A model generated the notes under the pieces. That model had not been told where the DNA came from, did not search any database, and saw only the letters and a list, made by a program, of their open reading frames with translations. Position numbers and translations under genes: made by a program. Of a stretch of 64,000 nucleotides of DNA, positions 17,825 to 49,345 are shown piece after piece (the first letter of the stretch is position 1; every line of letters begins with the position of its first letter). Source of the DNA: a virus; IMG/VR virus record IMGVR_UViG_3300046459_000548, positions 1-64,000 of that record; one strand, 5' to 3'.

Positions 17825-18675
17825 TGGCCCGCATCCGTTCCATCAAGCCGGAGTTCTTCACCTCCCTCACGATCGCCGACCTTCCGCTGTCCGCCCGGCT
17901 GACGTTCATCGGGTTGTGGACCTACGTCGACGACAACGGGGTGGGGCCCGCCGACGCACGGCTGATTCGCGCCGCTGTGTGGCCGCTCGAAGAGACTCCG
18001 GACATCCTCCAGAGGACTCGCGAGGATCTCCAGAGGCTTCAAGAAGCCGGTCTCGTCACCCTGTACGAGGCCTCCGGAAGGCCTCTCGTGGCCGTGAACG
18101 GCTGGGAAGAGCACCAGAAAGTCAGCCACCCACGGAAGCCGCGATTCCTCACCCCGGACGAGCTTCCGCAGCGCCGTGACCAGGAATCTTTCGACTCTCC
18201 GGAGGGTCTCCAGAGTCCTCCGGAGGACTGCGAGAGCGCTCCGGAGGATGACGCCCCTGAGCAGGGAGCAGGGAGCAGGGAGCAGGGAAAAGGAATTGAG
18301 GGAAATTCGGAGCCTCCGGCATCCGACGAACCCTCTGCCCGTCCCGACGTCGAGCGCGTCTGTGAGCACCTTGCCGCCGTCATCGAAAAGGGCGGCGGCA
18401 AGAAGCAGCGGATCACCAAGACGTGGCGCAACGACGTCCGGCTGCTGCTCGACGTCGACGGCGTAACGCCCGACAAGGCCATCGCCGCCATCGACTGGGC
18501 GCACGCCGATGACTTCTGGAATGCGCACATCCTCAGCCCCGGAAAGCTCCGGACGAAGTACGAAACCCTCCGGCGCCAGGCCGCCTCGCAGCAGCGCAAG
18601 CGCGCACCCCAGGGCCCGCCCACGGCACCCCGCCACATGACCGAAGAGGAGAAGCAGAGTGCACTCGAATTCTGA
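17824..18675 (+). CDS. phage replication initiator / replisome organiser
   Basis: MARIRSIKPEFF N-terminus, low-complexity linker, FWNAHILSPGKLRTKYETL C-terminus; precedes DnaC and DnaB. Confidence 0.85.
   Translation: MARIRSIKPEFFTSLTIADLPLSARLTFIGLWTYVDDNGVGPADARLIRAAVWPLEETPDILQRTREDLQRLQEAGLVTLYEASGRPLVAVNGWEEHQKVSHPRKPRFLTPDELPQRRDQESFDSPEGLQSPPEDCESAPEDDAPEQGAGSREQGKGIEGNSEPPASDEPSARPDVERVCEHLAAVIEKGGGKKQRITKTWRNDVRLLLDVDGVTPDKAIAAIDWAHADDFWNAHILSPGKLRTKYETLRRQAASQQRKRAPQGPPTAPRHMTEEEKQSALEF
18007..18309. repeat. putative origin iterons inside the rep gene
   Basis: CTC-NN-GAG octamers at 18007, 18017, 18028, 18197, 18208, 18218 and 18239; (GAGCAGG)x4 at 18259-18286, then an A-rich tract. 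Confidence 0.6.
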
Positions 18676-28068: not shown

Positions 28069-28833
28069 TCAGGGGCAGTCGACGCTGTACGCCATCTTGA
28101 AGCGGTGCGCCGGCTTCGTGAGCAGCGAGACCTCGATCGGCCGCTGCTCGTCGCTGTACACGACGCGGAAGATCTCGATCACCGGTACATCGCGCGGGAT
28201 CTCGAGGTGTACGTACTCCTCGGTGGTGGCCGGTCGCGCGCCAAGCACGTCATCCTGTGAGCGGGTCGGGTATCCCATCTCCTCCAGTAGGAGCGGCGAT
28301 CCGCCCGGGATGAGCCTCCGGTCCTCGAGCCGCGTCCCGCGCGCCAGCTCGATCGGGTAGTACGAATGCACCAGTTCGGCTGGCTTGCCATCGAGGTAGC
28401 CGATGCGGGACCGGCGCATCGCCGTCCCGTCCTCGTCTAGGCCGAGAGCGAGGCGGACTTGTTTCGGCGGTTTCACCTCGCCGACCTCGAGCATCTTGTA
28501 CTTGCCGTGCTGCTGGTTCTTCGTGGCCTCGGTCAGCCACCGGTACGGCTGCCCCGGCTCGGAGGGGCGCAGGCTGTGTGCGGGGCTGATTGCCTGGGAG
28601 CCTTCGTTGCGCACGAAGACGCCGACTCCAGTCTGGCCCTCGAGGAACCTTTCGTCTTTGAGGATCTGGAGGGCGCGCTGAATGGTCACGTTCGACGTTT
28701 CGAACTGTTCCCTCAGCTTCTCGTTTGTGGGGACCCGGGCTCCAGGTTCCCAGTCGCCCGACATGATCAGCTTTCTGATCTCGGCGGCGATGCGCTCACC
28801 GAGGGGGCGCTTGTCCTCGTGCGGCTCGGGCAT
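28069..28833 (-). CDS. GntR/HutC-family regulator with UTRA domain (KorA/KorSA/TraR-like)
   Basis: RIAAEIRKLIMSGDWEPGARVPT...TIQRALQILKDE...GVGVFVR plus UTRA. Confidence 0.9.
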   Translation of the reverse strand: MPEPHEDKRPLGERIAAEIRKLIMSGDWEPGARVPTNEKLREQFETSNVTIQRALQILKDERFLEGQTGVGVFVRNEGSQAISPAHSLRPSEPGQPYRWLTEATKNQQHGKYKMLEVGEVKPPKQVRLALGLDEDGTAMRRSRIGYLDGKPAELVHSYYPIELARGTRLEDRRLIPGGSPLLLEEMGYPTRSQDDVLGARPATTEEYVHLEIPRDVPVIEIFRVVYSDEQRPIEVSLLTKPAHRFKMAYSVDCP

Positions 28834-28834
28834 G

Positions 28835-29365
28835 TCAGTCGACCTCGATCTCGTAGTGGAGGCGGCGAGGCGCCTTCATGACCATGAACTGCACTTCGAT
28901 GGGGCTCCCGTCTTCGGCGGTGGTCGTGCGTAGCAGCGTCAGGACACTCGAGCCCTCAGGGAGGGAGAGCGCGGTGCGCTCGAAGTCGTCCGCCTCCCGG
29001 AACTCCAGATCCTCGGAGACGTGCCGGGCGTGGTAGCCGAGTTCGGCCAGCAGTGTGGGTGCGCCGCCTTTGATCTTCTTCTTCTCGAGGAGCGCTGTAC
29101 CGCGCGCGATCTCGAGCGGGTAATACGAGTCGGCGAGTTCGATCGCTTCATCGTCGAGCAGGATGACCCGGCGGCGAACAGCGACCTTCTCGCCGGCTCC
29201 GAGAGAGAGGGTGGCGGCCACCTCTCGCGGCGGCACGACCTCGGCGACCTCGGTGAGTTGCTGACCGCCTCGTTGCCGCATCTCCTCACTCCAGGCGTCC
29301 GCTTGCCCCTGTTCGCGAGGCGTGACGTAGGCGAGTGAGTCATTCCGTCGCTGATTCTCGGCCAT
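28835..29365 (-). CDS. stand-alone UTRA domain protein
   Basis: ELADSYYPLEIARGT...GGAPTLLAELGY, paralogous to the neighbour's UTRA; no HTH. Confidence 0.85.
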   Translation of the reverse strand: MAENQRRNDSLAYVTPREQGQADAWSEEMRQRGGQQLTEVAEVVPPREVAATLSLGAGEKVAVRRRVILLDDEAIELADSYYPLEIARGTALLEKKKIKGGAPTLLAELGYHARHVSEDLEFREADDFERTALSLPEGSSVLTLLRTTTAEDGSPIEVQFMVMKAPRRLHYEIEVD

Positions 29366-29537
29366 CTCTTGAGCCTCCCCTCCACTGATGATGCTCGTTC
29401 TGACCTCCCAACCTTAAGCCCTTGATGATTACAGATGCCTGCACCCGCTTGGCCGAATCTGCGTCGCGAGGCTTGCTACGTTATGCATCAAGGCTTTAAG
29501 GTCGTTGACAGATGCGAAACCCGCGATCGGAGGCGCA

Positions 29538-29738
29538 ATGCTGCGAGTTCGGGACGTCGCGACGCACTTCCGAGTGCACCCCGCGACCGTCTATCGATGG
29601 ATCCACCAGGGCTTTGTTCCTGCCTACAGGAACGGCCAGCCCTACCAGCCCGGAGACGGTGCCACCGGCACGCTCCGCATTCCCGAGTCCGTCCTGAATT
29701 CGACGGACACCCCTCAGCCGTCCACGGAGGTGGCCTGA
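29538..29738 (+). CDS. excisionase-like HTH_17 protein
   Basis: MLRVRDVATHFRVHPATVYRWIHQG. Confidence 0.85.
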   Translation: MLRVRDVATHFRVHPATVYRWIHQGFVPAYRNGQPYQPGDGATGTLRIPESVLNSTDTPQPSTEVA

Positions 29739-31646
29739 TGTCCAGCATCACCACAACCCCCACCCAGGCCACCTCGATGTCGCCGGCCGACCGCATGGCC
29801 CACGACGACTCCTCCCACGTGACGTGGCGGGCCCGCGAGAAGTATCTGCGCGGCCTGAACGTCAACGGTCGTATCCGCACCGCAGGCGACCAGCTGCTCG
29901 CCGACATGGCCGGCCGGTGGGCGCTCATCGAGGTCACCGTCGAATACGTGTCCCCGGTCTCCCCGGACGGCAGCATCGTCCTCGTGGTCGCCGGACGCGA
30001 CCGGCAGGGTGAGGCCCTCGTTCAGATGGACGCCCAGGACCGGGCCGAAGCGCTCGACTGGATGGACCGGGACTACGCCTCCCTCCTCGGCAAGGCGACC
30101 GTCCTGTACGGGCAGCCCGCACTCGACCTGCGGCGCGTCACCCTCGCCCAGCCGCAGAGCGTGAAGGCGGCGGCGTGATGGCCACGGCGACCCGTCCGGC
30201 GATGCCCGCCGAGTTCTCCGACTCGCTGGATCTCGCGATCTACCGCGAGACCAAGAACCAGGTGCCGGCCGACGAGCGCTCCACCTGCCCGCTGCACCTG
30301 AACTGGCGGGACCGTTGCTCCCAGCTGCACGTGGCGGGTGGTCGCTGATGGACCCCGCTCTGATCCGGGCCGTCGCCGCGCAGCTGACCCGCCTGTCACT
30401 GCGTGAGCCGGGCGAGGCGACCTGCCGCATCATGCTGGGCGGTCTGCCGCTGGCCAGTGCTTTCGACTGCTGGCACAGCGTGGACTTGTCGGCTGCGGGA
30501 CTCCACCGGGCAGCCGTGCTCCTCGAAGTTCCGGGCGTGACACCCCGACTGGCGCCGGTCCTGCAGCTCCGGCGCTAGACCCCCAAGACCGCCGCGGCAG
30601 CGGTCCGACAATCCCCCCGTCCCGCTGCCGCGGCTTTCCACCCCGCACCACCCCTCATCCCGGCATGACCAACCGAGGAGATCAGCCATGCCTTCTACCG
30701 ACCAGGCCGTCCGCTCCAGCATCGAGGACGTCGACGATGCCGTGGGCAAACTGCGGATCGACTACCGTCGCGCAGGCTTCCAGGGCATCCACACCGGAGC
30801 CGTCCCGTTCGGCCGATTCGGCAACCTCGTCGGCTCCGAGGTCACGGCAGAGCAGCGCATCGACGTCGGCAACACCGGCGAGTACGTGTCCGTCCGCCAC
30901 ACCTTCGTCGTCACCTGCACTGGCTTCGGCTGCACCGACCCCGTCGCCGAAGTCGCGACACGCAACCTGATCTTCGACTGTGACCACGGCGACATCACCG
31001 AAGAGGGTCGGCTCGCCGCCCGCAAGCAGGCCCAAGCCCACGCCGAGACGTGCCGCGCCCTGCCCCGCACCACCGCCTGACCCCACCCCCCATCCCATTC
31101 CTGATTGACCACCTTGAAGGGCACCCCCATGTCTCTGACTCTGATCACCTCCGCCCCGTCGTCGGATGCCGAGTACCGCACCGGCCTGATCTCCCGCTAC
31201 CTGACCGCCCGCAGCTCGCGGACACGGAAGGCGCTGCGGGCCGAGGCCGCGGCCTACGACCGGGCCAACAAGGACGCCCCGTCTCTGACGGATGAGCTGT
31301 TCGGCGCGAGCCTCGGCGACGTCGCCTGAGCCCCTAGACCGCCGTGGCGGCGAGGAACCCAATCCCCCGCGGACTCGCCGCCACGGTCTACGACCCCGCC
31401 CCCACCCCAGCCCCAACCCGAGAGGAACCCGCGATGAGCAGCACCGAGTCCGACTACTTCGAGATCGCCACCGACAAGGCCCTGTTCAAGAAGGACGGAG
31501 CTGCCCCCTTCGGCGCCCCGGCCGGCACCCGCGTCGAGTCGTTCAAGGAGACCGGCGACTGGGTCGACATCCACCTGTCCAGCGGCTACCAGATCAGCCT
31601 GCACGAGTCGCGGATCGCCTACATCCTCACCCGCAACGCCGCCTGA
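29738..31646 (+). other. small hypothetical genes of the transfer module (29738-30178, 30178-30348, 30348-30578, 30688-31080, 31129-31329, 31434-31646)
   Basis: TGATG couplings and strong RBSs. Confidence 0.6.
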
Positions 31647-32059
31647 TGGCCGACGTGGTGATCGTGTCGTTCGGCTTCCTGCACGATTCCGCCCCGGATG
31701 CGGACGTGGTTCTGGATTTGCGGCGTGCGTTCCGTGACCCGCACGTCGACCCGCGCATGCGGGAGTTGACCGGCCGCGACCGGCTCGTCCAGCGGACCGT
31801 GCTCGGAACGCTCGGGGTTCGCCCCCTGCTGCGGGCCACCGTCCGGCAGGTCGCCGCCTACAGCCAGGGCCCGTCCGTCGACCGGATCGTCATCGGCTCC
31901 GGATGTGCGGGCGGCAGGCACCGGTCGGTGGTTGTCGCCGAACGGCTCGCCCGACGGCTCCGGCGCCGTGGCCACCGCGTCACCGTCACCCACCGCGACC
32001 TGCACCAGCCCGTCGTGCAGCGCCCCAACACCACCACACCTCCCGAGAGGAGCGCCTGA
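31646..32059 (+). CDS. RapZ C-terminal domain-like protein
   Basis: VSFGFLH...ADVVLDLR...RDPH...LTGRD...GCAGGRHRSV. Confidence 0.85.
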   Translation: MADVVIVSFGFLHDSAPDADVVLDLRRAFRDPHVDPRMRELTGRDRLVQRTVLGTLGVRPLLRATVRQVAAYSQGPSVDRIVIGSGCAGGRHRSVVVAERLARRLRRRGHRVTVTHRDLHQPVVQRPNTTTPPERSA

Positions 32060-32292
32060 TGAGCGCGTCGACCACGAGCTACTGCTTGATCATGACGGTC
32101 CAGCCTGCGCAGCGGGACCGCGGCGTTACGGCTCTCGCCACGATCAGCAGGGTCATTGACGTCCCCGCAGGCACGACCCGCGATCAGCTCTTCAACGACG
32201 CCTGCGAGTACGTAGCCGGCCAGTTGCGGGACAAGGGCCTGCCGGGCGGCCACAACGTCCTCTTCTACTCCCTTGAACCCAACGATCTTTAA
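32059..32292 (+). CDS. hypothetical protein
   Basis: GAGGAG RBS; ends VLFYSLEPNDL. Confidence 0.65.
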   Translation: MSASTTSYCLIMTVQPAQRDRGVTALATISRVIDVPAGTTRDQLFNDACEYVAGQLRDKGLPGGHNVLFYSLEPNDL

Positions 32293-32301
32293 GGAGGAAT
32301 C

Positions 32302-33417
32302 ATGAGCTTCACCGACAAGTTCAAGGCCCCGGGCCGCCGCCTGGACGTGTTCGCCGTCGTCGAGAAGCTACTGACGCTCGCCTCGCTCACCCTGGTCGCC
32401 ATCACGGTCGGCGGGCAGCTGGGCGAGATGATCGGCCTGCACGGCAGGGTCGGCATGCTCGTCGGCTGGTCGATCGCCGTCGTGTACGACGCCCTGTGGA
32501 TCGGGGCGCTGCGCATGTCGGAGATCGCGATCCGGCAGCGCTCGAAGGTCGGCATGGCCGTCATGCTCGGCCTGTCCGCCGTCGCGGTCGGCGTCTCGGC
32601 AACGATCCTGCTGATCCTCGGCCACGCCAAGGTATTCGCCTTCGTACCGGTCGCCGCCGCCCTGTTCATGGGGCTGCGCCTGTTCGCCAGCAACGTCCTT
32701 GCCGACCCGGCGACGGCCGCCCGCATCGCCGAGCAGTCCGCGGCGGACCGCAACGCCCGAGCCCTGGCCGCGGCCGGCGCCCGGCATCTGCGGTCCGAGG
32801 CGACGACGGATGTGCTGACGGAGACCGCCGGCCATCTCGCGGAGATGCAGCGGCAGATCGCCCGAGCCGATGTTCTGACGAAGGCGCAGGCTGAAATCAA
32901 CGAGGCCCGCGCCAACGCCGAGAAGCGCCTGCAGGACTCCGAGAAGAAGCACGGTGTGGCGGCGCTGGCCTTCGCCGAACGCGACCTGATTCTGACCGTC
33001 TCCCGGCCCGCGGTCACGGCAGGCGGAGACACCCCGCCCGAGCTGGAGGGTCACACGGTGGTCACACAGGCCACCCCGGAAATCGCGACCGTGACCACAC
33101 CCCCCGTGACCGAGCCCGAAACCGAGGTCCCGGTTGCGGGGGAGACGCTGCCCCGGCAGGCGCCAGTAGCCAACCCGATGGAGCTCTCCGAGCTGGCCGT
33201 GGCGGCGGGCGTACCGCTGCCGAAGCCGGGGGCGAAGCTCACCGACGAGCAGCTGTCCGTGGTGCTGCGCTGGCTGCGGTACGCCATGGAGCCGCCGCGC
33301 TCTTACCGCCAGGCGCAGAAGGACTTCCGTGACGCCGGGTTCACCGCCCGAGAGGAGCGCATCCGCCACGCCTGGGCGGAGATCGAGGAGCGCGAGACCG
33401 GCGCCCTCACTAGCTAG
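32302..33417 (+). CDS. SpdB-like membrane spread protein
   Basis: About 4 N-terminal TM helices, coiled coil, P/T-rich linker and small C-terminal domain; AAGGAGG RBS. Confidence 0.7.
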   Translation: MSFTDKFKAPGRRLDVFAVVEKLLTLASLTLVAITVGGQLGEMIGLHGRVGMLVGWSIAVVYDALWIGALRMSEIAIRQRSKVGMAVMLGLSAVAVGVSATILLILGHAKVFAFVPVAAALFMGLRLFASNVLADPATAARIAEQSAADRNARALAAAGARHLRSEATTDVLTETAGHLAEMQRQIARADVLTKAQAEINEARANAEKRLQDSEKKHGVAALAFAERDLILTVSRPAVTAGGDTPPELEGHTVVTQATPEIATVTTPPVTEPETEVPVAGETLPRQAPVANPMELSELAVAAGVPLPKPGAKLTDEQLSVVLRWLRYAMEPPRSYRQAQKDFRDAGFTAREERIRHAWAEIEERETGALTS

Positions 33418-33503
33418 CCGGCATGCCCAGTGAGGCCCAGCCCCCACGGTCTGGTCCTTGCTGAGACTGCCGGAAGCAGTCGACATAGCAAAACCGCAGG
33501 TCA

Positions 33504-33560
33504 AGCCCGGTGAGTGAACCGGTGAGCGGAACCCTCGCAGACCCGGCAAGCAGACCCGGA
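33504..33560 (+). repeat. clt-like array of 8-bp direct repeats
   Basis: AGCCCGGT 33504, GAACCGGT 33516, GAACCCTC 33529, GACCCGGC 33540, GACCCGGA 33553. Confidence 0.45.
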
Positions 33561-33911
33561 CAGGGTCGCGCCCGACACCACCACCCATGAGAGGAGATCA
33601 GCAGACGTGAGCGGATCAACGTACTGGCCCACAGAGATCAAGCGGGCGGACAGGCGCTCACCCAAGGCGGGCGCGACCCGCCGGCTGGACCGGCTGCGCA
33701 GCACCTTGCGCGACCTCGACCCAGTCATCGCCAACCGGGCATGGGGCGAGATCGGTGAAGCCCTCCAGCGCATCACCGACCGCTACACGCAGTAAACGTT
33801 CACTCGTTCATTCACCCCAGGGACAGATGAACATTCCCTGTGCTACGCGCGCACGTGCGCGCACAAAGCAGACGTTCACCCGCCCCAGTCACGGACCGTG
33901 AAAGGAAAACG

Positions 33912-35159
33912 ATGGAGATCCTGCTCATCGCGGCATGCGCGTGGCTCGTCCACACGGCAGGCGCGCAGAGCGAGCAGTCGAAAATGGGGCTGTCCCCGGC
34001 ACAGCGCGACATCCTGCGCGAGACGACCCGGCACGAGAAAGCCGTCCAGAAGATCGCCGACAGGCACGGCGTCGCCCCGCCAGCCGGCAACAAGCCTGGC
34101 GTCTCGCCGTGGAAGGAACCGCCGTCCACGGAGAACGGGCCGGCGCTCACCCTCCCGGAGGCGTTCCGGTCCGGCTACCGGAACCGCACCGCCGTCGAAC
34201 GGGTGGCCACCCCGATAGGGCGTCGGGCCGGCGGATGGACCGCGCAGGGCGTGGCCTGGGTCCAGGACACAGGCAAGGGTGCGCTGCGCGAATACCGCAA
34301 GCGCCGACGTGCCGGCGGCCACGAAGATCCGGCGCCGGTGCTCGTGCCGATGCCGCCCGCCCAACCGCCGATCGTTCCGCCGATGCCGACGGAGCCGCCG
34401 ATAGCGGGCACCGACGACGGCGTGACGGTCAAGAAGCCCGAGGTCACAGACGAAACCGACCCATCCAGCATCCCGAAGGCGGCAACGGCTCCCGAAGCCG
34501 CCGCAGATGGGGCCGAGCCGGAACCGAAGGCTCTCGGGCCGGAGGAGTTCGACGAGTGGGTCAAGGGCCCCCTCGAGGTTCCAGTCGACCGTGACACCTC
34601 CGGGGATACGAAGCCCGCCGCTACGGCCCCCGCTGCCGACCCCGCGCCGACGGCGCCGGAGTCCCAGCCGGCCGTAACCGAACCCGCGAACGACAAGGAG
34701 CCGGCTGCCGCCGGTGAAGGAGTAGGACGCATGGCAGCAGAAGTCACCTACGAGTCCGTCATGGACGAGAGCGACGAGCTCTCCCTGATGTGCGACGACG
34801 ACGTCAGGGTCTACGGCCGGATCCGTATCCGGTCGGAGCGTGAGATCGGACGCGGCGACGCGCTGATCGCCGCCCTGGAAAACGCCGGATTCGGCCCGTC
34901 CGTCATCGGCTGGGTCGCCCGCTGCAAGGAGCAGTACCAGGTGATCCACGGCCAGCTCGACGAGCTGGAGACCAACACGATCGCCCAAGGCGAGCAGGTC
35001 GTGAAGGCCAAGGCCTTGTTGGAGGCCGGGCAGGGGGTCTACGCCGACATCGCCAAGGACATGGAGTCGGTCGCCGAGCGGGGCTCCTACGTCTCCGATG
35101 CCGTCGACGCCGAGGACACCTCCGCCCACACCGAGGTCTACGAGACGAAGGCGGCCTGA
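33912..35159 (+). CDS. transfer-associated protein (hydrophobic N-terminus, Pro/Ala linker, helical C-terminal domain; possible internal start at 34731)
   Basis: AAAGGA RBS; internal GAAGGAG-N8-ATG in frame. Confidence 0.7.
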   Translation: MEILLIAACAWLVHTAGAQSEQSKMGLSPAQRDILRETTRHEKAVQKIADRHGVAPPAGNKPGVSPWKEPPSTENGPALTLPEAFRSGYRNRTAVERVATPIGRRAGGWTAQGVAWVQDTGKGALREYRKRRRAGGHEDPAPVLVPMPPAQPPIVPPMPTEPPIAGTDDGVTVKKPEVTDETDPSSIPKAATAPEAAADGAEPEPKALGPEEFDEWVKGPLEVPVDRDTSGDTKPAATAPAADPAPTAPESQPAVTEPANDKEPAAAGEGVGRMAAEVTYESVMDESDELSLMCDDDVRVYGRIRIRSEREIGRGDALIAALENAGFGPSVIGWVARCKEQYQVIHGQLDELETNTIAQGEQVVKAKALLEAGQGVYADIAKDMESVAERGSYVSDAVDAEDTSAHTEVYETKAA

Positions 35160-35161
35160 CC

Positions 35162-35554
35162 ATGAGCGAAACGAGCACCGCACGATCGGTCGTCACTTAC
35201 GCCGCCGTGCTCGCCAGGGCTGCGGCCTACGGCATCCGGGCCAGCACCACCAGGCGGGCCGTGGAGCGGCTCCAGTCGCGCTTCCAGGAGCGCGCCGACT
35301 CGGCCCGGTATCTGTCCGAGGCGATGACCGTCCTGCATGTCGACGAGCCCACCACCACCGCCTACATGGAGATCGCGACCCTGTCGAACGCGATGGCCGG
35401 GAACGTCGGCCAGATCGTCTCCGCCTCCGACTCGCTGGCCACCTCAGCCCAAGGCCTGGACTCGGAGACGAAGGCCCAGCACGGGCGGATGGCCGACGCC
35501 AACCGCACCCACAGCGTGCAGATGGCCGACCGCGAGTTCATCAAGCGCCAGTAG
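35162..35554 (+). CDS. small helical transfer-associated protein
   Basis: 130 aa, directly upstream of the TraB-like gene. Confidence 0.75.
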   Translation: MSETSTARSVVTYAAVLARAAAYGIRASTTRRAVERLQSRFQERADSARYLSEAMTVLHVDEPTTTAYMEIATLSNAMAGNVGQIVSASDSLATSAQGLDSETKAQHGRMADANRTHSVQMADREFIKRQ

Positions 35555-35630
35555 AGGCCAGACACGCCCCACGAAGGGCGGGGCCAGCCCTGACCCCGCC
35601 CTTCACCACCGCAGACTCGGAGAGAACCGG

Positions 35631-38192
35631 ATGGCAACGCCGACCCTAACCAAGCCCGAAGCTAAGACCGAAGAGCCGCAGCAGGAACTCACTGGACTGC
35701 GCGCCCGCATGGAGCAGTCGATCAACCCCGGCCTGTACGTCGGCGCCGGGCTGGGCGTCGCCTCGGCGTACCTCACCGGCGACCCGCTGCTGCTGACCAC
35801 CGTCGGCGCCACCGGTGTCGCTGCCGGCTGGGCCGCGTTGGGCATGAACCCCGGCCCGTGGCGGTGGCTGCCCGGCCAGGGAGAGCCGTGGGAATGGATG
35901 TGCCGCCGCAGCAACCGCAGCTACCGGCGCAAGGTCCGTCGGATGCGTATTCGGCTCGACTCCGACGCGCAGGCCGTCGCGGTCGGCCCGGGCAAGACGA
36001 AGCCGATCATCATCGGCGTCACCGACGGCTGGCGCACCCGCGACGACCGGCCGGAACTGGTCCGCGAGGCCACCGCCGAAGCCCACCGGGTCCGCTGCGC
36101 TCTCCTCCGCAAGGTGTGGGCGCAGGCGCTGCCGAACTGGAACTCCGGCTGGTGGCGCAAGTACACGGCCGCCGAGATGGCGCTCCGGGCCGGACCGCTT
36201 GCCGCAATCCCCGCCAGCGGATTCGTCGAGATGCCCTGGTGGGCACACCTCACGGTCGTCAGCATCGGAGCCGGCTGGGGATCCCGCACCTGGCACCGCC
36301 CCGCCCCCGCGGCCATCGACACGGCCGGCCCGAAGGGCGCCGACTGGTATGTGGCCCGCTGGGCGGAGTGGATCGCCTGCGAGCGAGGCCCGCTGCCCGA
36401 CTCCAAGCTGGCCAGTGTCGCCGTCGACGCCGACAAGCTCACCGCGATCATCGTGTCCACCACGGCGAAGCCGGCACTGTCCGTCGACCAGGACTCGATC
36501 AGCATCGCGTTCGGGGTGCCGCCCCGGGCAGTGAACGTGTACCGGCCCGACGACATGGCCGCCTCCCGGGCCAAGCTGACGGTGCGGCTGCGCACCAAGG
36601 CCGCCGAGCTGGACATGGGCGATCTCGTGGCCGTCTGGGACGAGTACAGCCCCTACACGGGCAGCGAGCTGCACGAGCCGGAGAAGACCGAGTTCGGGCG
36701 CCGCTTCCAGCTGCTCATGCCGCGGAAGGGCTCTTCCGTCGCCGACGTGCAGCCGCGCGCCATTGCCCAGGCCCTAGACCTCAAAGGCGAAGACGCCGTA
36801 TCCCGCCTTCACCTGCGGGTCATCGACGCCCGCCGCATCGAGGTCAACGAGATGAGCACCAACCCGCTTCAGGGCGGCGTGGCGCTCGACCTGGATGCCC
36901 TGACCATGGACGACCAGGGCTACATCACGGTCGGCAAGGACATCTACGGCCGCCCGGCCAAGTGGCGGCTGCTGAAATTCGACCGCAAGCGCCGCGGCCT
37001 GTCCGGGCAGCCGTCCGCGTCCGCCGTGCACTCCTTCGGCTCCGGCACCACCGGCTCCGGTAAGACCAGCCTCGAAGAAGACCTCCAGGTCGCACAGCGA
37101 AAGAACGGCTTCATCTCCTGGCTCGCCGACGGCAAGGGCGGCGCCGGGTATGCCTCCTGGCTGACCGAACTCGACTGGCTCCTCAAGTCGCCCTACGGGG
37201 CGATGCTCATGGGGCAGGCAGCCAACTCGGTCAGCGAGTACCGGTTCGCCGAGCAGATGAAACTGCAGTGGCTCGACGACGAAGGCTTCACCGAGAACGG
37301 GCGCAGTTTCTTCGTCATGAACGACCCGTTCAAGCCCATGGTCTGCACGTGGGACGAGTTCAACGAGATGATCCTCAAGGACCCGACCGCGTTCCACGTC
37401 AAGCCGCTCCTGCGGTCCGTGTCCAGCATCGGACGCCTCTCCCGCGCCGCCGGGATGGCCGCCCGCGTGCTGCTCCAGATCCCCAACCTGGACTCGATCG
37501 GCTCAGACGCGTCCGCCAACGCCATCCGCGACATGCTGCAGTCCGGCAACATCGCGCTGTTCCGCACCGCCCGCTCCGACGTGGACCTCATGTCGCTCGG
37601 ATCCCGGACCCCCGAGTTCCGGCTCGCCCCGCTGCTCGAGCGTTTCCCGGACGGCTCCGAGACCGGCGGCCTGTTCTACATCGCCGACGGCAAAGCCCAG
37701 TACACCGCCTCCCGGGCCATGTTCCACAGCAACCCCGCCCGCATCGCCCGCCAGTTCCCCCTGCATGCCATCAGCTGGCAGGAAGCCGACGCCGCCTGCA
37801 AGGCCGGGCCCGCCGGGCTCGCCTACCTGCGGCGCGACGAATACCGCAACCTCGACGCCGGCGACGAGGAGGCGTTCCTCCGCGAGCTCGTCGCCAAAGA
37901 GCAGGAGGGCAGCAAGAAGGGCAAGACCGTCATCGACGTCAAGCCCGCAGTGGCCGCCGAGGTTGATGACGACGACCTCGACGACCTTGTCCCGCCCACC
38001 CGCTCGCAGCTCGTCTGGCACGCGGTCGACGGCGGCGCCCGCCGCAACAAGCAGATCGCCGAGGTCACCGACCTGACCCGCACCAACGTCGCCGGCGCAA
38101 CAGCCCGCCTGGAGCGCCTCGGCAAGCTCGCCAAGAAGGAACGTGACTGGCACACCGCAGAACCGCTCGACACCGCATCCATCAGCGCCTAA
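35631..38192 (+). CDS. TraB-like FtsK/SpoIIIE DNA translocase
   Basis: N-terminal TM segments, Walker A GTTGSGKT, DGKGG, Walker B CTWDE, RLSRAAG, C-terminal winged helix. Confidence 0.8.
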   Translation: MATPTLTKPEAKTEEPQQELTGLRARMEQSINPGLYVGAGLGVASAYLTGDPLLLTTVGATGVAAGWAALGMNPGPWRWLPGQGEPWEWMCRRSNRSYRRKVRRMRIRLDSDAQAVAVGPGKTKPIIIGVTDGWRTRDDRPELVREATAEAHRVRCALLRKVWAQALPNWNSGWWRKYTAAEMALRAGPLAAIPASGFVEMPWWAHLTVVSIGAGWGSRTWHRPAPAAIDTAGPKGADWYVARWAEWIACERGPLPDSKLASVAVDADKLTAIIVSTTAKPALSVDQDSISIAFGVPPRAVNVYRPDDMAASRAKLTVRLRTKAAELDMGDLVAVWDEYSPYTGSELHEPEKTEFGRRFQLLMPRKGSSVADVQPRAIAQALDLKGEDAVSRLHLRVIDARRIEVNEMSTNPLQGGVALDLDALTMDDQGYITVGKDIYGRPAKWRLLKFDRKRRGLSGQPSASAVHSFGSGTTGSGKTSLEEDLQVAQRKNGFISWLADGKGGAGYASWLTELDWLLKSPYGAMLMGQAANSVSEYRFAEQMKLQWLDDEGFTENGRSFFVMNDPFKPMVCTWDEFNEMILKDPTAFHVKPLLRSVSSIGRLSRAAGMAARVLLQIPNLDSIGSDASANAIRDMLQSGNIALFRTARSDVDLMSLGSRTPEFRLAPLLERFPDGSETGGLFYIADGKAQYTASRAMFHSNPARIARQFPLHAISWQEADAACKAGPAGLAYLRRDEYRNLDAGDEEAFLRELVAKEQEGSKKGKTVIDVKPAVAAEVDDDDLDDLVPPTRSQLVWHAVDGGARRNKQIAEVTDLTRTNVAGATARLERLGKLAKKERDWHTAEPLDTASISA

Positions 38193-38205
38193 AGGAGATC
38201 AACTC

Positions 38206-38433
38206 ATGACCATCGCTATCAGCACCCTGTTCTTCCTCGCCTGCGTCGGCATGGCCTGGTGGTTCAAGAAGGACTCCTCGTTCCGCCCCCGCGAGTTCAT
38301 CGCCGTCTCCGTGTTCTGGATCCTCCTCGTCGCCACCCCCTTCGGCGGCGGCCTCGTCGACAAGATGCAGACCGTGATCGGGAACAGCGCCCGGGCGGGC
38401 GTCGACAGCGTCAGCTCCGTCTCCAGCAAGTAG
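38206..38433 (+). CDS. small two-TM membrane protein (Spd-like)
   Basis: AAGGAG RBS; two hydrophobic helices. Confidence 0.7.
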   Translation: MTIAISTLFFLACVGMAWWFKKDSSFRPREFIAVSVFWILLVATPFGGGLVDKMQTVIGNSARAGVDSVSSVSSK

Positions 38434-38514
38434 CCCAAGCCTGGCGGCCCGCAACCGGCGGGCCGCCTGCATCAACCAGACCCCGCGCCGCCTGGCCCGG
38501 AAGGAGCCCAGCCC

Positions 38515-39006
38515 ATGCCCGCACAGCCTGAGCCCACCGACCGGGCCGAAATCCAGAAGCTCGCCAACGCCGTCGAGGAGGCGCTCGCGGGGGAGATGCG
38601 GACCTCGTACCGCGACGACAGCTCCGACGTGCCGTCATGGCGGGACGGATCCCGCATCGGCACCACCCCGCCCGTTCAGCAGCCCGACAGCCGGATCGCA
38701 CCCCAGTGGGCCGTCGGCATCGCCGTCGCGTCCGTCGGCGTCGGAGCCGGCTCGACCGGCCTCGGCTGCGCGGCGTGGCTCCTCTTCAAGGGGCTGTCGC
38801 TCGTCAGCGTCCCGGGCCTCGAGCGATTCGCGCTCATCGTCATCGCCCCGTTCGCCGGTGCGGCCATGGTGGTCACCGCCATCGGCGCCGCAATCGGCAA
38901 AGCCCGGACCACGATCACCACCATCCACAACCACGGCCCGGTGGACCAGCGGGAGATCCACACTAAGACCACCGGCGTGTGGGCCAAAACCAACAACCAG
39001 CAGTGA
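38515..39006 (+). CDS. membrane protein (SpdD-like architecture)
   Basis: Pro-rich N-terminus, two TM segments, T/H-rich tail. Confidence 0.6.
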   Translation: MPAQPEPTDRAEIQKLANAVEEALAGEMRTSYRDDSSDVPSWRDGSRIGTTPPVQQPDSRIAPQWAVGIAVASVGVGAGSTGLGCAAWLLFKGLSLVSVPGLERFALIVIAPFAGAAMVVTAIGAAIGKARTTITTIHNHGPVDQREIHTKTTGVWAKTNNQQ

Positions 39007-39059
39007 AGCGACCGCACCCGCCGATAGCCTGCCGACTCCAACATCCCTGGGGGGAATGT

Positions 39060-39311
39060 ATGACCAGCTACAGCGACGTACAGAAGGCCGTGAGAGTCGA
39101 GAAGTTCAGGATCTGGTTCGCGTGGGCGTGCGGCGGCTGGGTCGGCCTGGGCGTAGCCTTCGCCACTCAGCGCATCCACATCGTCAGCGTCGTCACGCAG
39201 GTTCTGTTCGTCGGACTGGGGGCCCTGTCCACCATCGCCGCAGTGCGGATGAGCAACGCCCTCAATCGCAAGGCCGAAGCCGCACGCAAGGAAGTGCTGG
39301 GCGACCTGTAA
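39060..39311 (+). CDS. small membrane protein
   Basis: Two TM helices. Confidence 0.6.
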   Translation: MTSYSDVQKAVRVEKFRIWFAWACGGWVGLGVAFATQRIHIVSVVTQVLFVGLGALSTIAAVRMSNALNRKAEAARKEVLGDL

Positions 39312-42958: not shown

Positions 42959-43405
42959 GTGGCCGGCATCGTTTTCAACATCGCCCTCGGGCGGCTCGCC
43001 TACTACACGTCCCTGCCCGCCGCGAACGACGGCCTCGTCCTGATCGCCCTGGAAAGCAGCGGGCTGGAGACCGACGCCGTCCTGCGCGACAAGGACGACT
43101 TCGCCGCAGTGGTCGCCGGTAGCACCAACGAGCAGGCCACCGTCGGACGCAAGCCGCTCACCGGCGTCACCGTCACCGTCGACGACACCAACGACCGCGT
43201 CGCGCTCGATGCCTCCGACGTCACCTGGTCATCGCCGACGGGCAACGCCATCGGTGCGGTGGTGATCTGCTACGACCCCGACACCACCGGCGGGACAGAC
43301 GCCGACCTGATCCCGCTCACCAAGCACGACCTGGCCTGGACCCCGGACGGCAACACCTTCAACCTGACCATCACGGACTTCGCCCGGGTCACCTCCGCCG
43401 CGTAA
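42959..43405 (+). CDS. putative virion structural protein
   Basis: T/D/G-rich beta protein; GAGGAG RBS. Confidence 0.65.
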   Translation: MAGIVFNIALGRLAYYTSLPAANDGLVLIALESSGLETDAVLRDKDDFAAVVAGSTNEQATVGRKPLTGVTVTVDDTNDRVALDASDVTWSSPTGNAIGAVVICYDPDTTGGTDADLIPLTKHDLAWTPDGNTFNLTITDFARVTSAA

Positions 43406-43435
43406 GCAGTCCGGCGAAGGGAGCGGGAGGTCGCC

Positions 43436-44506
43436 GTGGCGAGCTTCACCGACGACTTTAATCGCGCCAACAGCACCGACCTGGGCGCCGGGTGGGTCGA
43501 GGTCTCAGGCGACTGGTCGATCGTCTCCAACCAGCTCTCGCCGGGCGCAGCGGGCGGCACGATCATTCTGCGCGCCGCCGGTGCGATGGCGGGCAACGAC
43601 AACTACGCGCAAGCCACGATCGCCGCCACCACCACAGCGAGCCAAGGCGTGTGGTGCCGCGGCAACAGCAACATCACCCAGGGCTACCTGTGGCGCAACA
43701 ACGGCACGACCTGGGACCTTTTCCAGGTCTTCGGAGGCTCTTTCACCAACATCGGCACCTATGCGGCAGCAGCCGTCGCAGGTGACGTCGCGAAAGTCCA
43801 GGCCGTCGGCACGACGATCAAAGGGTTCGTCAACGGTGTCCAGCGGGTCAGCGTCACGGACACCGCCGTCACGACGGGCACCAGCGTCGGTATCCGCTCG
43901 GACTCGGCTGGCGCGGTCCGCTACGACGATTTCGCCGCCGCGGACGTGACCGCCGGTGCGACCCTCGCCACCGCAGCCGCCACCGAGACCGCACAGCCGT
44001 TGACCGGCGCCAAGACGACAACGCTCAACCCCGCAGCCGCCACCCACACAGCGCAGCCCCTTACAGGCGCGAAGACCGGGACCCTCACCGCAGCCGCCAC
44101 GCCGGAGTCAGCGCAGCCACTTGCCGGCAGCAAGACGGTCACGCTCGGCACCGCACTTGAAACCGCCGCTACGCAAGCCCTCGCCGGAGCCAAGACGGCA
44201 CCGCTGTCTGCCGTGGCACAAACCGAGACCGCCCAGCCCCTCGCGGTCGTGACCAGCCGAAGTCTCGGCACAGCCATCGTCGTTGAGGCAGCCTGGCCGC
44301 TGTCGGGCGCCAAGAGCGCCGCCCTCGGCCCAGCGTTGGAGACCAGCATCGCGAGGCCACTCGTTACAGCCGGCGGACCCGACGTGGACATCGACGTCAC
44401 CGTCGGCAGTCCGTACAGCCCGTGGACGGCAGGCCAGCCCTACGCGTCCGCCTGGACTGTGCATGCGGGCCGGGCCAGCGACTGGGAGGTGGGCGCACCG
44501 TGCTGA
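43436..44506 (+). CDS. putative fibre protein: beta-sandwich head plus seven 20-aa repeats
   Basis: FTDDFNRAN...YDDF domain; repeats like TLxxAAATETAQPLTGAKT at about 43958-44377. Confidence 0.7.
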   Translation: MASFTDDFNRANSTDLGAGWVEVSGDWSIVSNQLSPGAAGGTIILRAAGAMAGNDNYAQATIAATTTASQGVWCRGNSNITQGYLWRNNGTTWDLFQVFGGSFTNIGTYAAAAVAGDVAKVQAVGTTIKGFVNGVQRVSVTDTAVTTGTSVGIRSDSAGAVRYDDFAAADVTAGATLATAAATETAQPLTGAKTTTLNPAAATHTAQPLTGAKTGTLTAAATPESAQPLAGSKTVTLGTALETAATQALAGAKTAPLSAVAQTETAQPLAVVTSRSLGTAIVVEAAWPLSGAKSAALGPALETSIARPLVTAGGPDVDIDVTVGSPYSPWTAGQPYASAWTVHAGRASDWEVGAPC

Positions 44507-44787
44507 TCCCCGCCACCTCCACTGAATACCTGCACGTGCCGGTCACCGCCCCATCCGGGACCGACCTCACCGGCGTCCCGGTACGGATCGCGGTGGTCGC
44601 CCACCGCGCTGACCCCGCCGACAGCGAGTGGCAGGCCGCGGACTGGGTGGACGGGGCGGCCCGGCTCCTCGTCGGCCCCGACAGCGGCCTGGTCCTCGCC
44701 ACAGGCGACTACCGGGTGTGGATCAACATCGACCCGCCCGGAGCCGAGAACGTCGTCCGCAAAGCCGGAATCCTCAGCGTCACCTAG
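44500..44787 (+). CDS. small Ig/BppU-like structural protein
   Basis: EYLHVPVTAP...GDYRVW...ENVVRKAG. Confidence 0.6.
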   Translation: MLIPATSTEYLHVPVTAPSGTDLTGVPVRIAVVAHRADPADSEWQAADWVDGAARLLVGPDSGLVLATGDYRVWINIDPPGAENVVRKAGILSVT

Positions 44788-44802
44788 AAGGGGGCGAGTC
44801 CG

Positions 44803-45186
44803 ATCGCGGACAACCTGAGCAACACCGCCGAGAACCGCACGATGGACTGGATGATGGGCTCGACCACCACGGCACCCACCACCCCCCTCAAGGTCGCGCT
44901 CGTCACCGCAGCAGGCGACGATGCAACCGCGGGCACCGAAGTCACCGGCGGCTCCTACACCCGCAAGACCCTCACCGTCGCCGCTGCGTCAGGCGGCAGC
45001 GTTGCCAACAGTGCGGACCTCGACTGGACCGGCATGCCCGCGTGCACCATCGTCGGCTGGGAGATCTGGGACTCCGCAGGCACGCCCATCCGCTGGTGGT
45101 ACGGGCCGCTCGACGCGAGCAAGACCCTCGCCGCCGGTGACGAGTTCAAGCTGACCGCCGGATCGCTCACGCTGTCGCTGAGCTGA
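44803..45186 (+). CDS. tail-fibre-like structural protein (possible ATC start; first ATG at 44842)
   Basis: GTEVTGGSYTR...EIWDS...LAAGDEFKL. Confidence 0.65.
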   Translation: MADNLSNTAENRTMDWMMGSTTTAPTTPLKVALVTAAGDDATAGTEVTGGSYTRKTLTVAAASGGSVANSADLDWTGMPACTIVGWEIWDSAGTPIRWWYGPLDASKTLAAGDEFKLTAGSLTLSLS

Positions 45187-45198
45187 CAGGAGGCGCGC

Positions 45199-49337: not shown

Positions 49338-49345
49338 GGAGCGCC

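What the first reader, a model, noticed from the sequence alone, without database searches (positions are those of the whole stretch)
28069..39311. Virion-encoding phage carrying a Streptomyces-type conjugation module (possible conjugative prophage)
Seen: between the replication and late genes lie a GntR/UTRA repressor divergent from Xis, then an SpdB-like membrane protein, 8-bp repeats, an FtsK/SpoIIIE ATPase with TM anchor and C-terminal wHTH, and small membrane proteins. I see no second integrase or replication initiator in the block. Known: Kor/TraR + TraB + Spd + clt is the dsDNA transfer and spreading kit of Streptomyces plasmids and AICEs (pIJ101, pSAM2, pSVH1). Inference: the phage uses its own Int and replisome and has two transmission routes, virion and hypha-to-hypha transfer, the second bypassing receptors and extracellular exposure.
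Basis: partly seen in the sequence, partly recalled or inferred. Interest (0 to 1): 0.9.

Follow-up and report, generated by a model that had tools for sequence, protein, structure and literature searches.

The report
Streptomyces phage carrying a TraB conjugation cassette
A complete 92-kb temperate Streptomyces phage carries an intact plasmid-type DNA-transfer cassette (FtsK-like TraB pump, SpdB-like membrane protein, repeat-bearing control DNA); related phages and prophages carry the same or an analogous cassette at the same place, so these phages probably can also move hypha-to-hypha without virions, as shown in 2010 for the plasmid-phage pZL12.

Summary
Window 28069-39311 holds a GntR/UTRA regulator divergent from an HTH_17 gene. 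It is followed by a six-gene cassette (32302-38433): SpdB-like membrane protein, 62-, 415- and 130-aa proteins, an 853-aa FtsK-fold ATPase with a C-terminal wHTH, and a 75-aa membrane protein. Two more small membrane proteins follow.

The cassette is 42-74% identical, gene for gene, to cassettes on large Streptomyces plasmids. The ATPase escapes Pfam, NCBIfam and PHROGs. Profile and fold searches place it with the conjugative coupling protein TcpA, with FtsK motors and, weakly, with pIJ101 Tra.

The record is a complete 92-kb phage genome with overlapping ends, integrase, replisome and virion genes, and no ParAB. It is not a nested AICE: the block has no integrase, Rep or att repeats.

The same cassette sits at the same early/late junction in three other IMG/VR phages with different head genes. 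It also lies in at least four isolate prophages, including one in S. xanthochromogenes JCM 4612. The nearest portal relatives lack it, but every near-complete one has another FtsK-like gene in that slot.

Transfer function is inferred, not shown. pZL12 is a direct precedent, so this is a new variant of a known kind. The scan also noted this stretch in another window of the same genome.

The parts
28069..28833 (-). GntR/UTRA (HutC-type) regulator, Kor/TraR-like
   Evidence: Pfam GntR 8.7e-16 and UTRA 5.9e-20. 27% identical to pIJ101 KorA, E 2e-11. 61% orthologue in relative G001.
28835..29365 (-). Stand-alone UTRA-domain protein without HTH
   Evidence: Pfam UTRA 2.2e-19. 54% orthologue in G001.
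29411..29502 (.). Divergent promoter/operator region with a 17-nt inverted repeat
   Evidence: Arms 29411-29427 and 29486-29502, 88% complementary.
29538..29738 (+). HTH_17 (Xis/MerR-like) DNA-binding protein, first gene of the rightward operon
   Evidence: Pfam PF12728 9.3e-9. Orthologues in G001 (56%) and in the G035 prophage (39%). Excisionase function not shown.
29738..32292 (+). Nine small ORFs of unknown function, including a RapZ C-terminal-domain protein (31646-32059)
   Evidence: GC3 gene call. PapZ_C 1.7e-28. RapZ_C homologues lie next to the cassette in G009, G035 and the CdTB01 plasmid.
32302..33417 (+). SpdB-like polytopic membrane protein (371 aa), first gene of the shared cassette
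   Evidence: Three hydrophobic helices. C-terminus matches pIJ101 SpdB, E 3e-6. 60-75% orthologues in phages G007-G009 and G047. No Pfam hit and no similarity to the DUF2637 protein of pSTRVI01.
33418..33606 (.). Conserved non-coding element, candidate clt or operator
   Evidence: Hairpin GACTGC-CGGAA-GCAGTC (33465-33481), CCGGTGAG x2 (33507-33514, 33519-33526) and AGACCCGG x2 (33539-33546, 33552-33559). Blocks are invariant across four phage and two plasmid loci. The repeat occurs three times in the plasmids.
33607..33795 (+). 62-aa conserved cassette protein
   Evidence: 64-78% identical in plasmids and phages.
33796..33911 (.). Conserved promoter/operator region with a 16-bp palindrome
   Evidence: Palindrome GCGCGCACGTGCGCGC at 33847-33862, plus a TTCACTCGTTCATTCA box. 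Aligned in seven loci. The plasmid copies keep the palindrome through paired changes.
33912..35159 (+). 415-aa Pro/Ala-rich cassette protein
   Evidence: 52-71% orthologues. No family hit.
35162..35554 (+). 130-aa cassette protein
   Evidence: 66-84% orthologues.
35573..35604 (+). GC-rich 11-bp stem-loop just upstream of the traB-like start
   Evidence: MFE -36.4 kcal/mol for 35550-35635, z -3.1. Stem kept in seven loci with changed sequence.
35631..38192 (+). TraB-like FtsK-family dsDNA translocase (853 aa): N-terminal hydrophobic helices, motor ATPase, C-terminal wHTH
   Evidence: Walker A/B. Profile hit to TcpA 6o1w, E 2.4e-5. Foldseek TcpA 1.4e-7 and FtsK motor 2.6e-6. Broad profile hits pIJ101 Tra, E 9e-10, collinear over ATPase and wHTH. 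dN/dS 0.19-0.36.
38206..38433 (+). 75-aa two-helix membrane protein, last gene of the shared cassette
   Evidence: Hydropathy. 42-56% orthologues.
38515..39006 (+). 163-aa membrane protein (Spd-like by position only)
   Evidence: Hydropathy. phrog_19266 1.1e-13. 95% in G006 and 30-39% in prophages.
39060..39311 (+). 83-aa membrane protein
   Evidence: Hydropathy. No homologue found in the compared loci.

Best explanation
Window 32302-39311, with its upstream GntR/UTRA switch, is a genuine Streptomyces-type double-stranded-DNA transfer and spreading cassette. It is a stable, selected module of a group of integrase-based temperate Streptomyces siphophages, not a passenger element.

Shown:
- The 853-aa protein is a TraB-like FtsK-family motor with a C-terminal wHTH.
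- The first cassette gene ends in an SpdB-like motif.
- Small membrane proteins follow the ATPase gene.
- A conserved non-coding block carries direct AGACCCGG repeats.
- The six genes travel as a unit between large plasmids and several phage lineages.

Inferred mechanism:
1. When the GntR/UTRA repressor is relieved, the operon is expressed.
2. TraB-like hexamers in the membrane bind the repeat block on the circular, replicating phage genome through the wHTH.
3. They pump unprocessed dsDNA into a contacting hypha and, with the Spd-like proteins, across septal cross-walls.
4. In the recipient, the phage's own integrase and replisome establish it.

This would give a virion-independent route of spread, as was shown for the plasmid-phage pZL12.

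My confidence that it is an integral TraB-type cassette is about 0.85. My confidence that it actually moves the phage genome between or within mycelia is about 0.5.
For: Identity of the ATPase:
- Walker motifs.
- Profile match to the conjugative coupling protein TcpA.
- Fold matches to TcpA and FtsK motors at probability 1.0.
- Collinear profile match to pIJ101 Tra over ATPase and wHTH, E 9e-10.

Other kit parts:
- SpdB C-terminal motif.
- KorA-like GntR.
- Membrane proteins.
- Conserved repeats.

Plasmid origin:
- Gene-for-gene synteny at 42-74% identity with the CdTB01 plasmid, S. albidoflavus linear plasmids and pSTRVI01.

Integral to phages:
- The record is 100% complete with overlapping ends.
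- TerL, portal, protease and MCP are present, as are integrase, dnaN, RecT and DnaB.
- No ParA or ParB.
- The same cassette is in phages G007, G008 and G009, with different portal/MCP types.
- It is also in prophages of four GTDB genomes, next to portal or MCP genes.
- The JCM 4612 prophage has the same overall gene order.
- All four near-complete portal relatives have an FtsK_SpoIIIE gene in the same slot.
- The ORFs are intact, with dN/dS 0.19-0.36.

Precedent:
- pZL12 transfer needs a tra gene and two neighbours (PMC3583192).
Against: - No functional data exist for this protein family. Every homologue is annotated 'hypothetical'.
- The ATPase has no Pfam, NCBIfam or PHROG hit.
- The link to characterised Tra proteins is weak: 23 bits to pIJ101 Tra, 19 bits to pZL12.71c.
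- Only two repeat copies are present, the motif is not enriched in the window, and the block could be a promoter/operator rather than a clt.
- The large plasmids that share the cassette also carry a second, canonical FtsK-like gene. It is therefore not certain that this cassette is their transfer system.
- The structure model is of modest quality (mean pLDDT 58), and the membrane anchor is poorly supported.
- About 19 of 24 genomic occurrences show no phage marker within 10 kb.
Confidence: 0.55

Rival explanations
1. Intramycelial spreading only. The cassette does not mediate mating between mycelia. It moves phage DNA across septal cross-walls inside an already infected or lysogenised mycelium, so that one infection event reaches many compartments and spores.
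For: The Spd/TraB complex is what drives intramycelial plasmid spreading, and SpdB2 homologues on actinophages were proposed to spread phage DNA (PMC4447253). The cassette contains an SpdB-like protein and several small membrane proteins. The slot is conserved across the phage lineage.
Against: In plasmids the same TraB protein does both steps, so nothing in the sequence separates the two. pZL12 showed true conjugal transfer (PMC3583192).
Confidence: 0.2
2. Another phage function for the membrane FtsK-like pump. Examples: superinfection exclusion or expulsion of incoming DNA, or delivery or retention of the phage genome in spore compartments during sporulation septation.
For: FtsK-like ATPases serve segregation and defence roles elsewhere. 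The G001-type protein matches the ATPase part of SspH in PADLOC and PHROG files FtsK-like genes as morons. The relatives carry non-orthologous FtsK-like genes, so the slot may select for a general pump.
Against: The window's cassette has no PADLOC hit. It is shared as a six-gene unit with plasmids in a Kor-Tra-Spd-like arrangement. It has an SpdB motif and a sequence-specific wHTH conserved together with a repeat block.
Confidence: 0.12
3. Inert cargo. A plasmid fragment was captured recently by recombination and has no role in the phage.
For: Closest full-length matches include large plasmids. The nearest portal relatives lack the orthologue. Plasmid and phage copies are interleaved in the TraB tree.
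Against: All genes are intact and under purifying selection. The same unit is at the same junction in phages whose TerL and portal are only 39% and 26% identical, and in prophages of isolates. Phage copies form two coherent clades.
Confidence: 0.06
4. A decayed AICE or small integrative element nested inside the phage.
For: The GntR + HTH_17 (Xis-like) + Tra + Spd content resembles AICE backbones (PMC2440964).
Against: There is no integrase, Rep, tRNA or flanking direct repeat. The best repeats are chance-level imperfect matches of 21 nt or less. The GntR/UTRA/HTH_17 trio is conserved in relative G001, which lacks this cassette.
Confidence: 0.03
5. Assembly chimera of a phage and a plasmid in a metagenome.
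For: The record is an IMG/VR contig of unknown assembly history.
Against: The same junctions (early genes, GntR, cassette, late genes) occur in independent contigs and in isolate genomes. GC and skew are even across the block.
Confidence: 0.02

Closest known systems
Streptomyces plasmid-phage pZL12 / phiZL12 (GQ919031; Zhong et al. 2010, J Bacteriol 192:3747) and its relative pSLE1
   Same: A roughly 90-kb virion-encoding temperate Streptomyces element. It also carries a GntR regulator divergent from an operon that ends in a membrane protein and an FtsK/SpoIIIE-like gene (pZL12.80.73c-.71c). Conjugal transfer needing a tra gene plus two adjacent genes is reported (PMC3583192). pSLE1 is described as syntenic with it (PMC4487206).
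   Different: - pZL12 is maintained as a plasmid with ParA/ParB. The window's element has an integrase and no ParA/ParB.
- The tra proteins are not orthologous: no BLASTP match, and only 19 bits with a broad profile.
- The virion genes are unrelated at the level searched.
pIJ101 / pSVH1 conjugation system (KorA/TraR, Tra/TraB, SpdA/SpdB, clt)
   Same: - GntR repressor divergent from the transfer operon.
- FtsK-like motor with a C-terminal wHTH: profile E 9e-10, collinear.
- SpdB C-terminal motif.
- Short direct repeats in non-coding DNA, as clt loci have (PMC4447253, PMC3583192).
   Different: - Very low sequence identity.
- The ATPase is about 200 aa longer.
- Three extra conserved proteins (62, 415 and 130 aa) lie between the SpdB-like gene and traB.
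- The regulator lies about 3.5 kb upstream of the cassette and about 6.8 kb upstream of the traB-like gene.
- The candidate clt lies 2 kb upstream of traB rather than at its 3' end.
- The replicon is a phage.
Uncharacterised six-gene cassette of large Streptomyces plasmids (pSTRVI01 NC_015951, Streptomyces sp. CdTB01 plasmid NZ_CP013744, S. albidoflavus linear plasmids)
   Same: Orthologous genes in the same order at 42-74% identity, with the same conserved intergenic blocks.
   Different: Plasmid backbone with ParAB and a second canonical FtsK-like gene, and no virion genes within 20 kb. The repeat block has three copies instead of two.
AICEs (pSAM2, SLP1, pMEA300)
   Same: Integrase-based maintenance combined with TraB-type dsDNA transfer under a GntR (KorSA-like) regulator (PMC2440964, PMC3218068).
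   Different: AICEs are roughly 10-20 kb (pSAM2 10.9, pMEA300 13.3, SLP1 17.3 kb; PMC2440964), have a Rep and no virion genes. Here the replisome and integrase are phage-type and a full head-tail-lysis set is present. The Tra protein would be missed by the PF01580 screen used to find AICEs.
TcpA, FtsK-like coupling protein of Clostridium perfringens pCW3 (PDB 6o1w-6o1z)
   Same: Best sequence-profile and fold match of the ATPase domain.
   Different: 13-16% identity. TcpA works with a multi-protein Tcp apparatus (from my own knowledge of the Tcp system, not checked here). It shows no match to the window protein's C-terminal wHTH region.

Membership tests
Streptomyces Tra/TraB conjugative dsDNA translocases | FtsK/SpoIIIE-type motor ATPase with Walker A and B | tested here: met
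   Motifs in the translation. Profile hit to TcpA, E 2.4e-5. Foldseek hits to TcpA and FtsK motors, E 1e-7 to 6e-5.
Streptomyces Tra/TraB conjugative dsDNA translocases | [quoted passage not shown] | tested here: met
   Helices 791-800, 806-813 and 817-829 at pLDDT about 80. Aligns to the C-terminal HTH region of pIJ101 Tra (hhalign E 0.085; profile domain iE 4e-5). Residues are invariant across 24 family members.
Streptomyces Tra/TraB conjugative dsDNA translocases | N-terminal membrane anchor | tested here: inconclusive
   Predicted helices 33-47, 54-72 and 203-221 are Gly/Ala-rich and moderately hydrophobic. They fall below my Kyte-Doolittle cut-off of 1.5 and have pLDDT below 50.
Streptomyces Tra/TraB conjugative dsDNA translocases | Detectable homology to an experimentally characterised Tra protein | tested here: met
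   A profile of the family plus 113 remote relatives hits pIJ101 Tra at E 9e-10 (23 bits, single-comparison E-value) over ATPase and wHTH. It hits pZL12.71c at 2e-8. Weak: no BLASTP match.
Streptomyces Tra/TraB conjugative dsDNA translocases | Match to Pfam FtsK_SpoIIIE (PF01580), the usual operational criterion | tested here: not met
   No hit even at E 10. This is a criterion of screens, not of the biology.
Streptomyces Tra/TraB conjugative dsDNA translocases | Binds 8-bp direct repeats of a clt and drives transfer and pock formation | not testable with these tools
   Candidate repeats AGACCCGG x2 lie in a conserved non-coding block. Binding and transfer need experiments.
Spd (spread) proteins, SpdB type | Polytopic membrane protein homologous to SpdB | tested here: met
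   Three hydrophobic helices. The C-terminal 90 residues match pIJ101 SpdB, E 3e-6. No DUF2637 or other family hit, so membership is weak.
Kil-Kor regulation (KorA/TraR GntR repressor) | GntR-family repressor divergent from the transfer operon | tested here: met
   GntR+UTRA, divergent intergenic inverted repeat, 27% identity to KorA. Repression of the cassette is not shown.
AICE (actinomycete integrative and conjugative element) nested in the phage | Own integrase, Rep and flanking att repeats | tested here: not met
   No integrase or Rep hit in 28-39 kb. No att-like direct repeats and no tRNA.
Phage-plasmid of the pZL12 type | Plasmid partition genes parA/parB | tested here: not met
   PF02195 and PF13614 are absent from the whole 92-kb record, while the controls ring.
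Temperate tailed phage (Caudoviricetes) | Terminase, portal, protease, major capsid, tail, lysis and integrase genes in one complete genome | tested here: met
   PHROG hits: TerL 1e-70, portal 7e-120, protease 4e-52, MCP 5e-48, tail 2e-165. Amidase. Integrase weak, 23 bits. CheckV completeness 100%.

The most novel reading that the evidence does not exclude
Virion-independent, TraB-driven hyphal transfer is a regular second transmission route of a whole group of integrase-based temperate Streptomyces siphophages. Every near-complete member keeps a membrane FtsK/TraB-type translocase cassette at the early/late junction. These cassettes are swapped with conjugative plasmids. The version seen here belongs to a large, unannotated Tra family that current ICE/AICE and phage annotation pipelines cannot see.
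Probability: 0.35. Interest if true: 0.8.

Novelty: new variant of a known kind. Interest (0 to 1): 0.62.

Why it matters
- **A second way in.** If the cassette works, these phages can enter new mycelia without receptors or exposure outside the cell, and can spread through a multicellular host without lysis. That would blur the line between prophage, AICE and plasmid in the main antibiotic-producing genus.
- **Effects on host-range and gene-flow estimates.** It would change how host range, receptor-based resistance and phage-mediated gene flow, including possible chromosome mobilisation by TraB, are assessed in Streptomyces.
- **A blind spot in annotation.** A Tra family of more than 110 protein clusters is invisible to PF01580-based screens, so conjugative potential in Streptomyces genomes is under-counted.
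- **Testable now.** Prophages with the cassette sit in culturable strains, for example S. xanthochromogenes JCM 4612, so the idea can be tested directly.

Tried and rejected
- **Family libraries.** Pfam (also at E 10), NCBIfam, PHROGs and PADLOC gave nothing for the 853-, 371-, 415-, 130-, 62- and 75-aa proteins.
- **Phage collection.** Megablast of 28-48 kb and tblastn of the ATPase against 50,697 phage records found nothing.
- **DUF2637.** The 371-aa protein shows no similarity to the DUF2637 protein at the same position in pSTRVI01.
- **pZL12 and slot neighbours.** BLASTP of the ATPase against pZL12.20c, pZL12.71c and the G001/G002 FtsK-like proteins gave no significant match.
- **Repeats.** Generic tandem and direct repeat finders did not single out a clt. 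GACCCGG is not enriched in the window.
- **Whole-block conservation.** The 115-column non-coding core is no more conserved overall than traB coding DNA (0.746 against 0.755). Only its blocks are invariant.
- **att search.** Only chance-level matches and no tRNA.
- **Rfam.** No hits.
- **pSVH1 motif.** I recall the pSVH1 TraB recognition sequence as GACCCGGA, which would match the repeat here. I could not confirm it in the held papers, so it is not used as evidence.
- **Access limits.** The pZL12 paper (PMC2897331) is not held.


Full report
**What the record is**

The window is the first 64 kb of a 92,199-bp IMG/VR virus record. Bases 4-129 recur at 92074-92199, and CheckV rates the record 100% complete. 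It is therefore a complete, circular or terminally redundant genome without host flanks, not an integrated prophage.

GC is about 69%, so genes were called by third-position GC. Gene content, from left to right:
- Weak tyrosine integrase (1700-3025, -) and XRE repressor (3424-3975, -).
- Rightward early genes: antirepressor, DNA pol III beta clamp, YqaJ/RecT, a DnaA/DnaC-like loader and DnaB.
- Tail-fibre, glycosyltransferase and epimerase genes at 43.4-51.5 kb.
- Terminase large subunit (54514-57177), portal, protease and major capsid.
- Beyond the window: a 1532-aa protein that I take to be the tape measure from its size and position, minor tail genes, an amidase lysin, a serine resolvase, an IS256-type transposase and Ku.
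- ParB and ParA families are absent, while the control genomes ring.

**The block itself**

- 28069-28833 (-) is a GntR+UTRA regulator and 28835-29365 (-) is a UTRA-only paralogue.
- 29538-29738 (+) is an HTH_17 protein. A 17-nt inverted repeat lies between the divergent genes.
- Nine small ORFs follow, one with a RapZ C-terminal domain.
- Then come a 371-aa membrane protein, 62-, 415- and 130-aa proteins, an 853-aa protein, and membrane proteins of 75, 163 and 83 aa.

The 853-aa protein:
- It has Walker A GSGTTGSGKTS and Walker B WDEFNE.
- It has no Pfam, NCBIfam, PHROG or PADLOC hit.
- A profile of 24 family members matches the pCW3 conjugation coupling protein TcpA (E 2.4e-5).
- An AlphaFold model (mean pLDDT 58; about 75-85 over residues 330-760) matches TcpA (1.4e-7), the FtsK motors of P. 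aeruginosa and E. coli (3e-6 to 6e-5) and EccC.
- A broader profile, the family plus 113 remote relatives from a search of 1.8 billion proteins, hits pIJ101 Tra. The match is collinear over the ATPase and the C-terminal wHTH (E 9e-10 for a single comparison). It also hits pZL12.71c (2e-8).

Other kit parts:
- The C-terminus of the 371-aa protein matches that of pIJ101 SpdB (E 3e-6).
- The GntR protein is 27% identical to pIJ101 KorA.

**Origin and unit character**

- By tblastn, the ATPase is 65-71% identical to 'hypothetical proteins' on eight large Streptomyces plasmids.
- In three plasmids inspected, the 62-aa to 75-aa genes are syntenic at 42-74% identity. The SpdB-like C-terminus is shared with two of them.
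- The protein family has more than 110 clusters. All are in Streptomyces or Streptacidiphilus, and all are unnamed.
- In 24 GTDB species representatives, 5-6 of the six genes are present together, except where the contig ends.

Two intergenic regions are conserved across four phage and two to three plasmid loci.
- The first (33418-33606) has a GACTGC/GCAGTC hairpin, two CCGGTGAG and two AGACCCGG spaced 13 nt apart. The plasmids have three AGACCCGG.
- The second (33796-33911) has a 16-bp palindrome that the plasmids keep through paired changes.
- A GC-rich stem-loop precedes the ATPase gene (z -3.1), and its stem is kept with changed sequence.
- clt loci of Streptomyces plasmids are known to consist of short direct and inverted repeats recognised by the TraB wHTH (PMC4447253, PMC3583192). 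The first block is therefore my candidate clt.
- With two copies and no window-wide enrichment, this stays a hypothesis.

**Is it part of the phage?**

No integrase, Rep, tRNA or att-like duplication bounds the block, so a nested AICE is unlikely.

Portal relatives at 74-82% identity (proviruses G001, G002, G005 and contig G003):
- They lack the orthologue.
- G001 keeps the GIY-YIG, GntR/UTRA, UTRA and HTH_17 genes in the same order at 51-61% identity.
- G001 and G002 have, in the same slot, a pair of roughly 385-aa and 680/698-aa proteins that pass the Pfam FtsK_SpoIIIE cut-off.
- G003 has a 746-aa distant relative of the window's ATPase, next to a GntR/UTRA gene.
- All four relatives that are at least 90% complete have an FtsK_SpoIIIE match. 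The fragments, which mostly cover structural genes, do not.

Other phages with the window's cassette:
- It is complete in IMG/VR phages G007 (a 70-kb provirus), G008 (61.8 kb, 99% complete) and G009 (54.4 kb, 100% complete), and partly in fragment G006.
- G008 has the same overall order: early genes, GntR, cassette, fibre/GT, terminase, head, tail. Yet its terminase and portal are only 39% and 26% identical.
- G007 and G009 have PF04860-type portals, and G009 has a different HK97 capsid gene.

Isolate genomes:
- An HK97 capsid and/or portal gene lies 8-13 kb downstream on the same strand in four of the 24 genomes.
- A fifth locus, on a 15-kb S. candidus contig, shares phage flank genes.
- In S. 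xanthochromogenes JCM 4612 the cassette lies inside a GC-poor island of about 78 kb in a 383-kb contig.
- That island has a G000-like order: integrase, antirepressor, dnaN, YqaJ/RecT, DnaC-like, DnaB (66%), GIY-YIG/GntR, cassette (38-84%), portal, and further on resolvase and Ku (63%).

Selection and phylogeny:
- The ATPase ORF is intact in all copies, with dN/dS 0.19-0.36 between phage copies.
- In a quick FastTree tree, the phage copies fall in two clades plus one separate branch, with plasmid copies interleaved. I did not assess branch support.

**Reading**

The structural claim is well supported: this is a TraB/Spd-type cassette under a Kor-like switch, built into a virion-encoding, integrase-based phage and its relatives.

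The functional claim, a second conjugative or intramycelial route, rests on analogy. [quoted passage not shown] Its record shows the same arrangement of a GntR gene, a membrane protein and an FtsK-like gene. [quoted passage not shown]

What is new here:
- Maintenance is by integrase, not ParAB.
- The Tra family is a different, unannotated one.
- The slot is conserved across a phage group, with exchange of cassettes with plasmids.

I rate it a new variant of a known kind.

**Limits**

- The pZL12 paper itself was not available.
- The structure model is modest.
- The plasmid cassette has no experimental characterisation that I could find.
- The large plasmids also carry a second FtsK-like gene.
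- An earlier first-reader note on another window of this same genome made the same suggestion. It is not independent evidence.

Noticed in passing
window 4-129 and record 92074-92199: A 126-bp exact repeat at both ends of the 92,199-bp record, with 128 of 129 bases matching if extended. This implies a circular or terminally redundant genome. IMG/VR classes the record as 'linear', probably because the repeat is offset by 3 bases.
   Followed up: partly
window 17951-18300: CTCCGGA/CCTCCGGA occurs 5-8 times within 300 bp, inside the 283-aa gene just upstream of the DnaC-like and DnaB genes. This looks like an iteron-type replication origin inside an initiator gene.
   Followed up: no
window 7400-7800: CGGCGATC occurs 6 times in 300 bp among small early ORFs. 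Not examined.
   Followed up: no
window 33847-33862: A perfect 16-bp palindrome GCGCGCACGTGCGCGC upstream of the 415-aa gene. The plasmid copies change it symmetrically (…GCGTACGTACGC…), which suggests an operator for a dimeric protein.
   Followed up: partly
window 35573-35604: An 11-bp GC stem-loop between the 130-aa gene and the traB-like start. It is kept in seven loci with changed stem sequence. It may be a terminator or attenuator limiting expression of a potentially toxic (kil-type) gene.
   Followed up: partly
L082:16344-19574 (G001), L088:7183-10449 (G002), L094:6987-14311 (G003): Portal relatives carry other FtsK-like modules in the same slot. G001 and G002 have a roughly 385-aa protein plus a 680/698-aa PF01580 protein (phrog_1358). 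G003 has a 412/258/676/188/746-aa set next to a GntR/UTRA gene, reminiscent of pZL12.73c-.71c.
   Followed up: partly
window 35631-38192 and its family: More than 110 protein clusters of this TraB-like family are all annotated 'hypothetical' and have no Pfam domain. Screens for AICEs and conjugative plasmids that rely on PF01580 would miss them.
   Followed up: partly
window 42959-51462: Tail-fibre/depolymerase-like genes (a 1006-aa protein, phrog_11699) lie upstream of the terminase, away from the main tail operon, and are followed by a glycosyltransferase and a nucleotide-sugar epimerase. CGCTGCCG occurs 6 times near 45.6-45.9 kb, probably a coding repeat.
   Followed up: no
record 81905-87618 (L003:6905-12618): The right arm holds a serine resolvase, an IS256/Mutator-family transposase (an insertion sequence inside the phage) and a Ku homologue. 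Resolvase and Ku are also in the JCM 4612 prophage.
   Followed up: no
window 38515-39006: The 163-aa membrane protein is the only gene of the block with a PHROG family (phrog_19266, unknown function), so it has been seen in sequenced phages before.
   Followed up: no
plasmid hits H95-H105: A set of 85-93-kb Streptomyces plasmids (including S. ambofaciens ATCC 23877, S. californicus and several NBC strains) carry a distant relative annotated 'type IV secretory system conjugative DNA transfer family protein'. At least two plasmids of this size class (NBC_01369 and NBC_01005) have phage portal genes, and NBC_01369 is in both lists. They look like further pZL12/pSLE1-type plasmid-phages.
   Followed up: no
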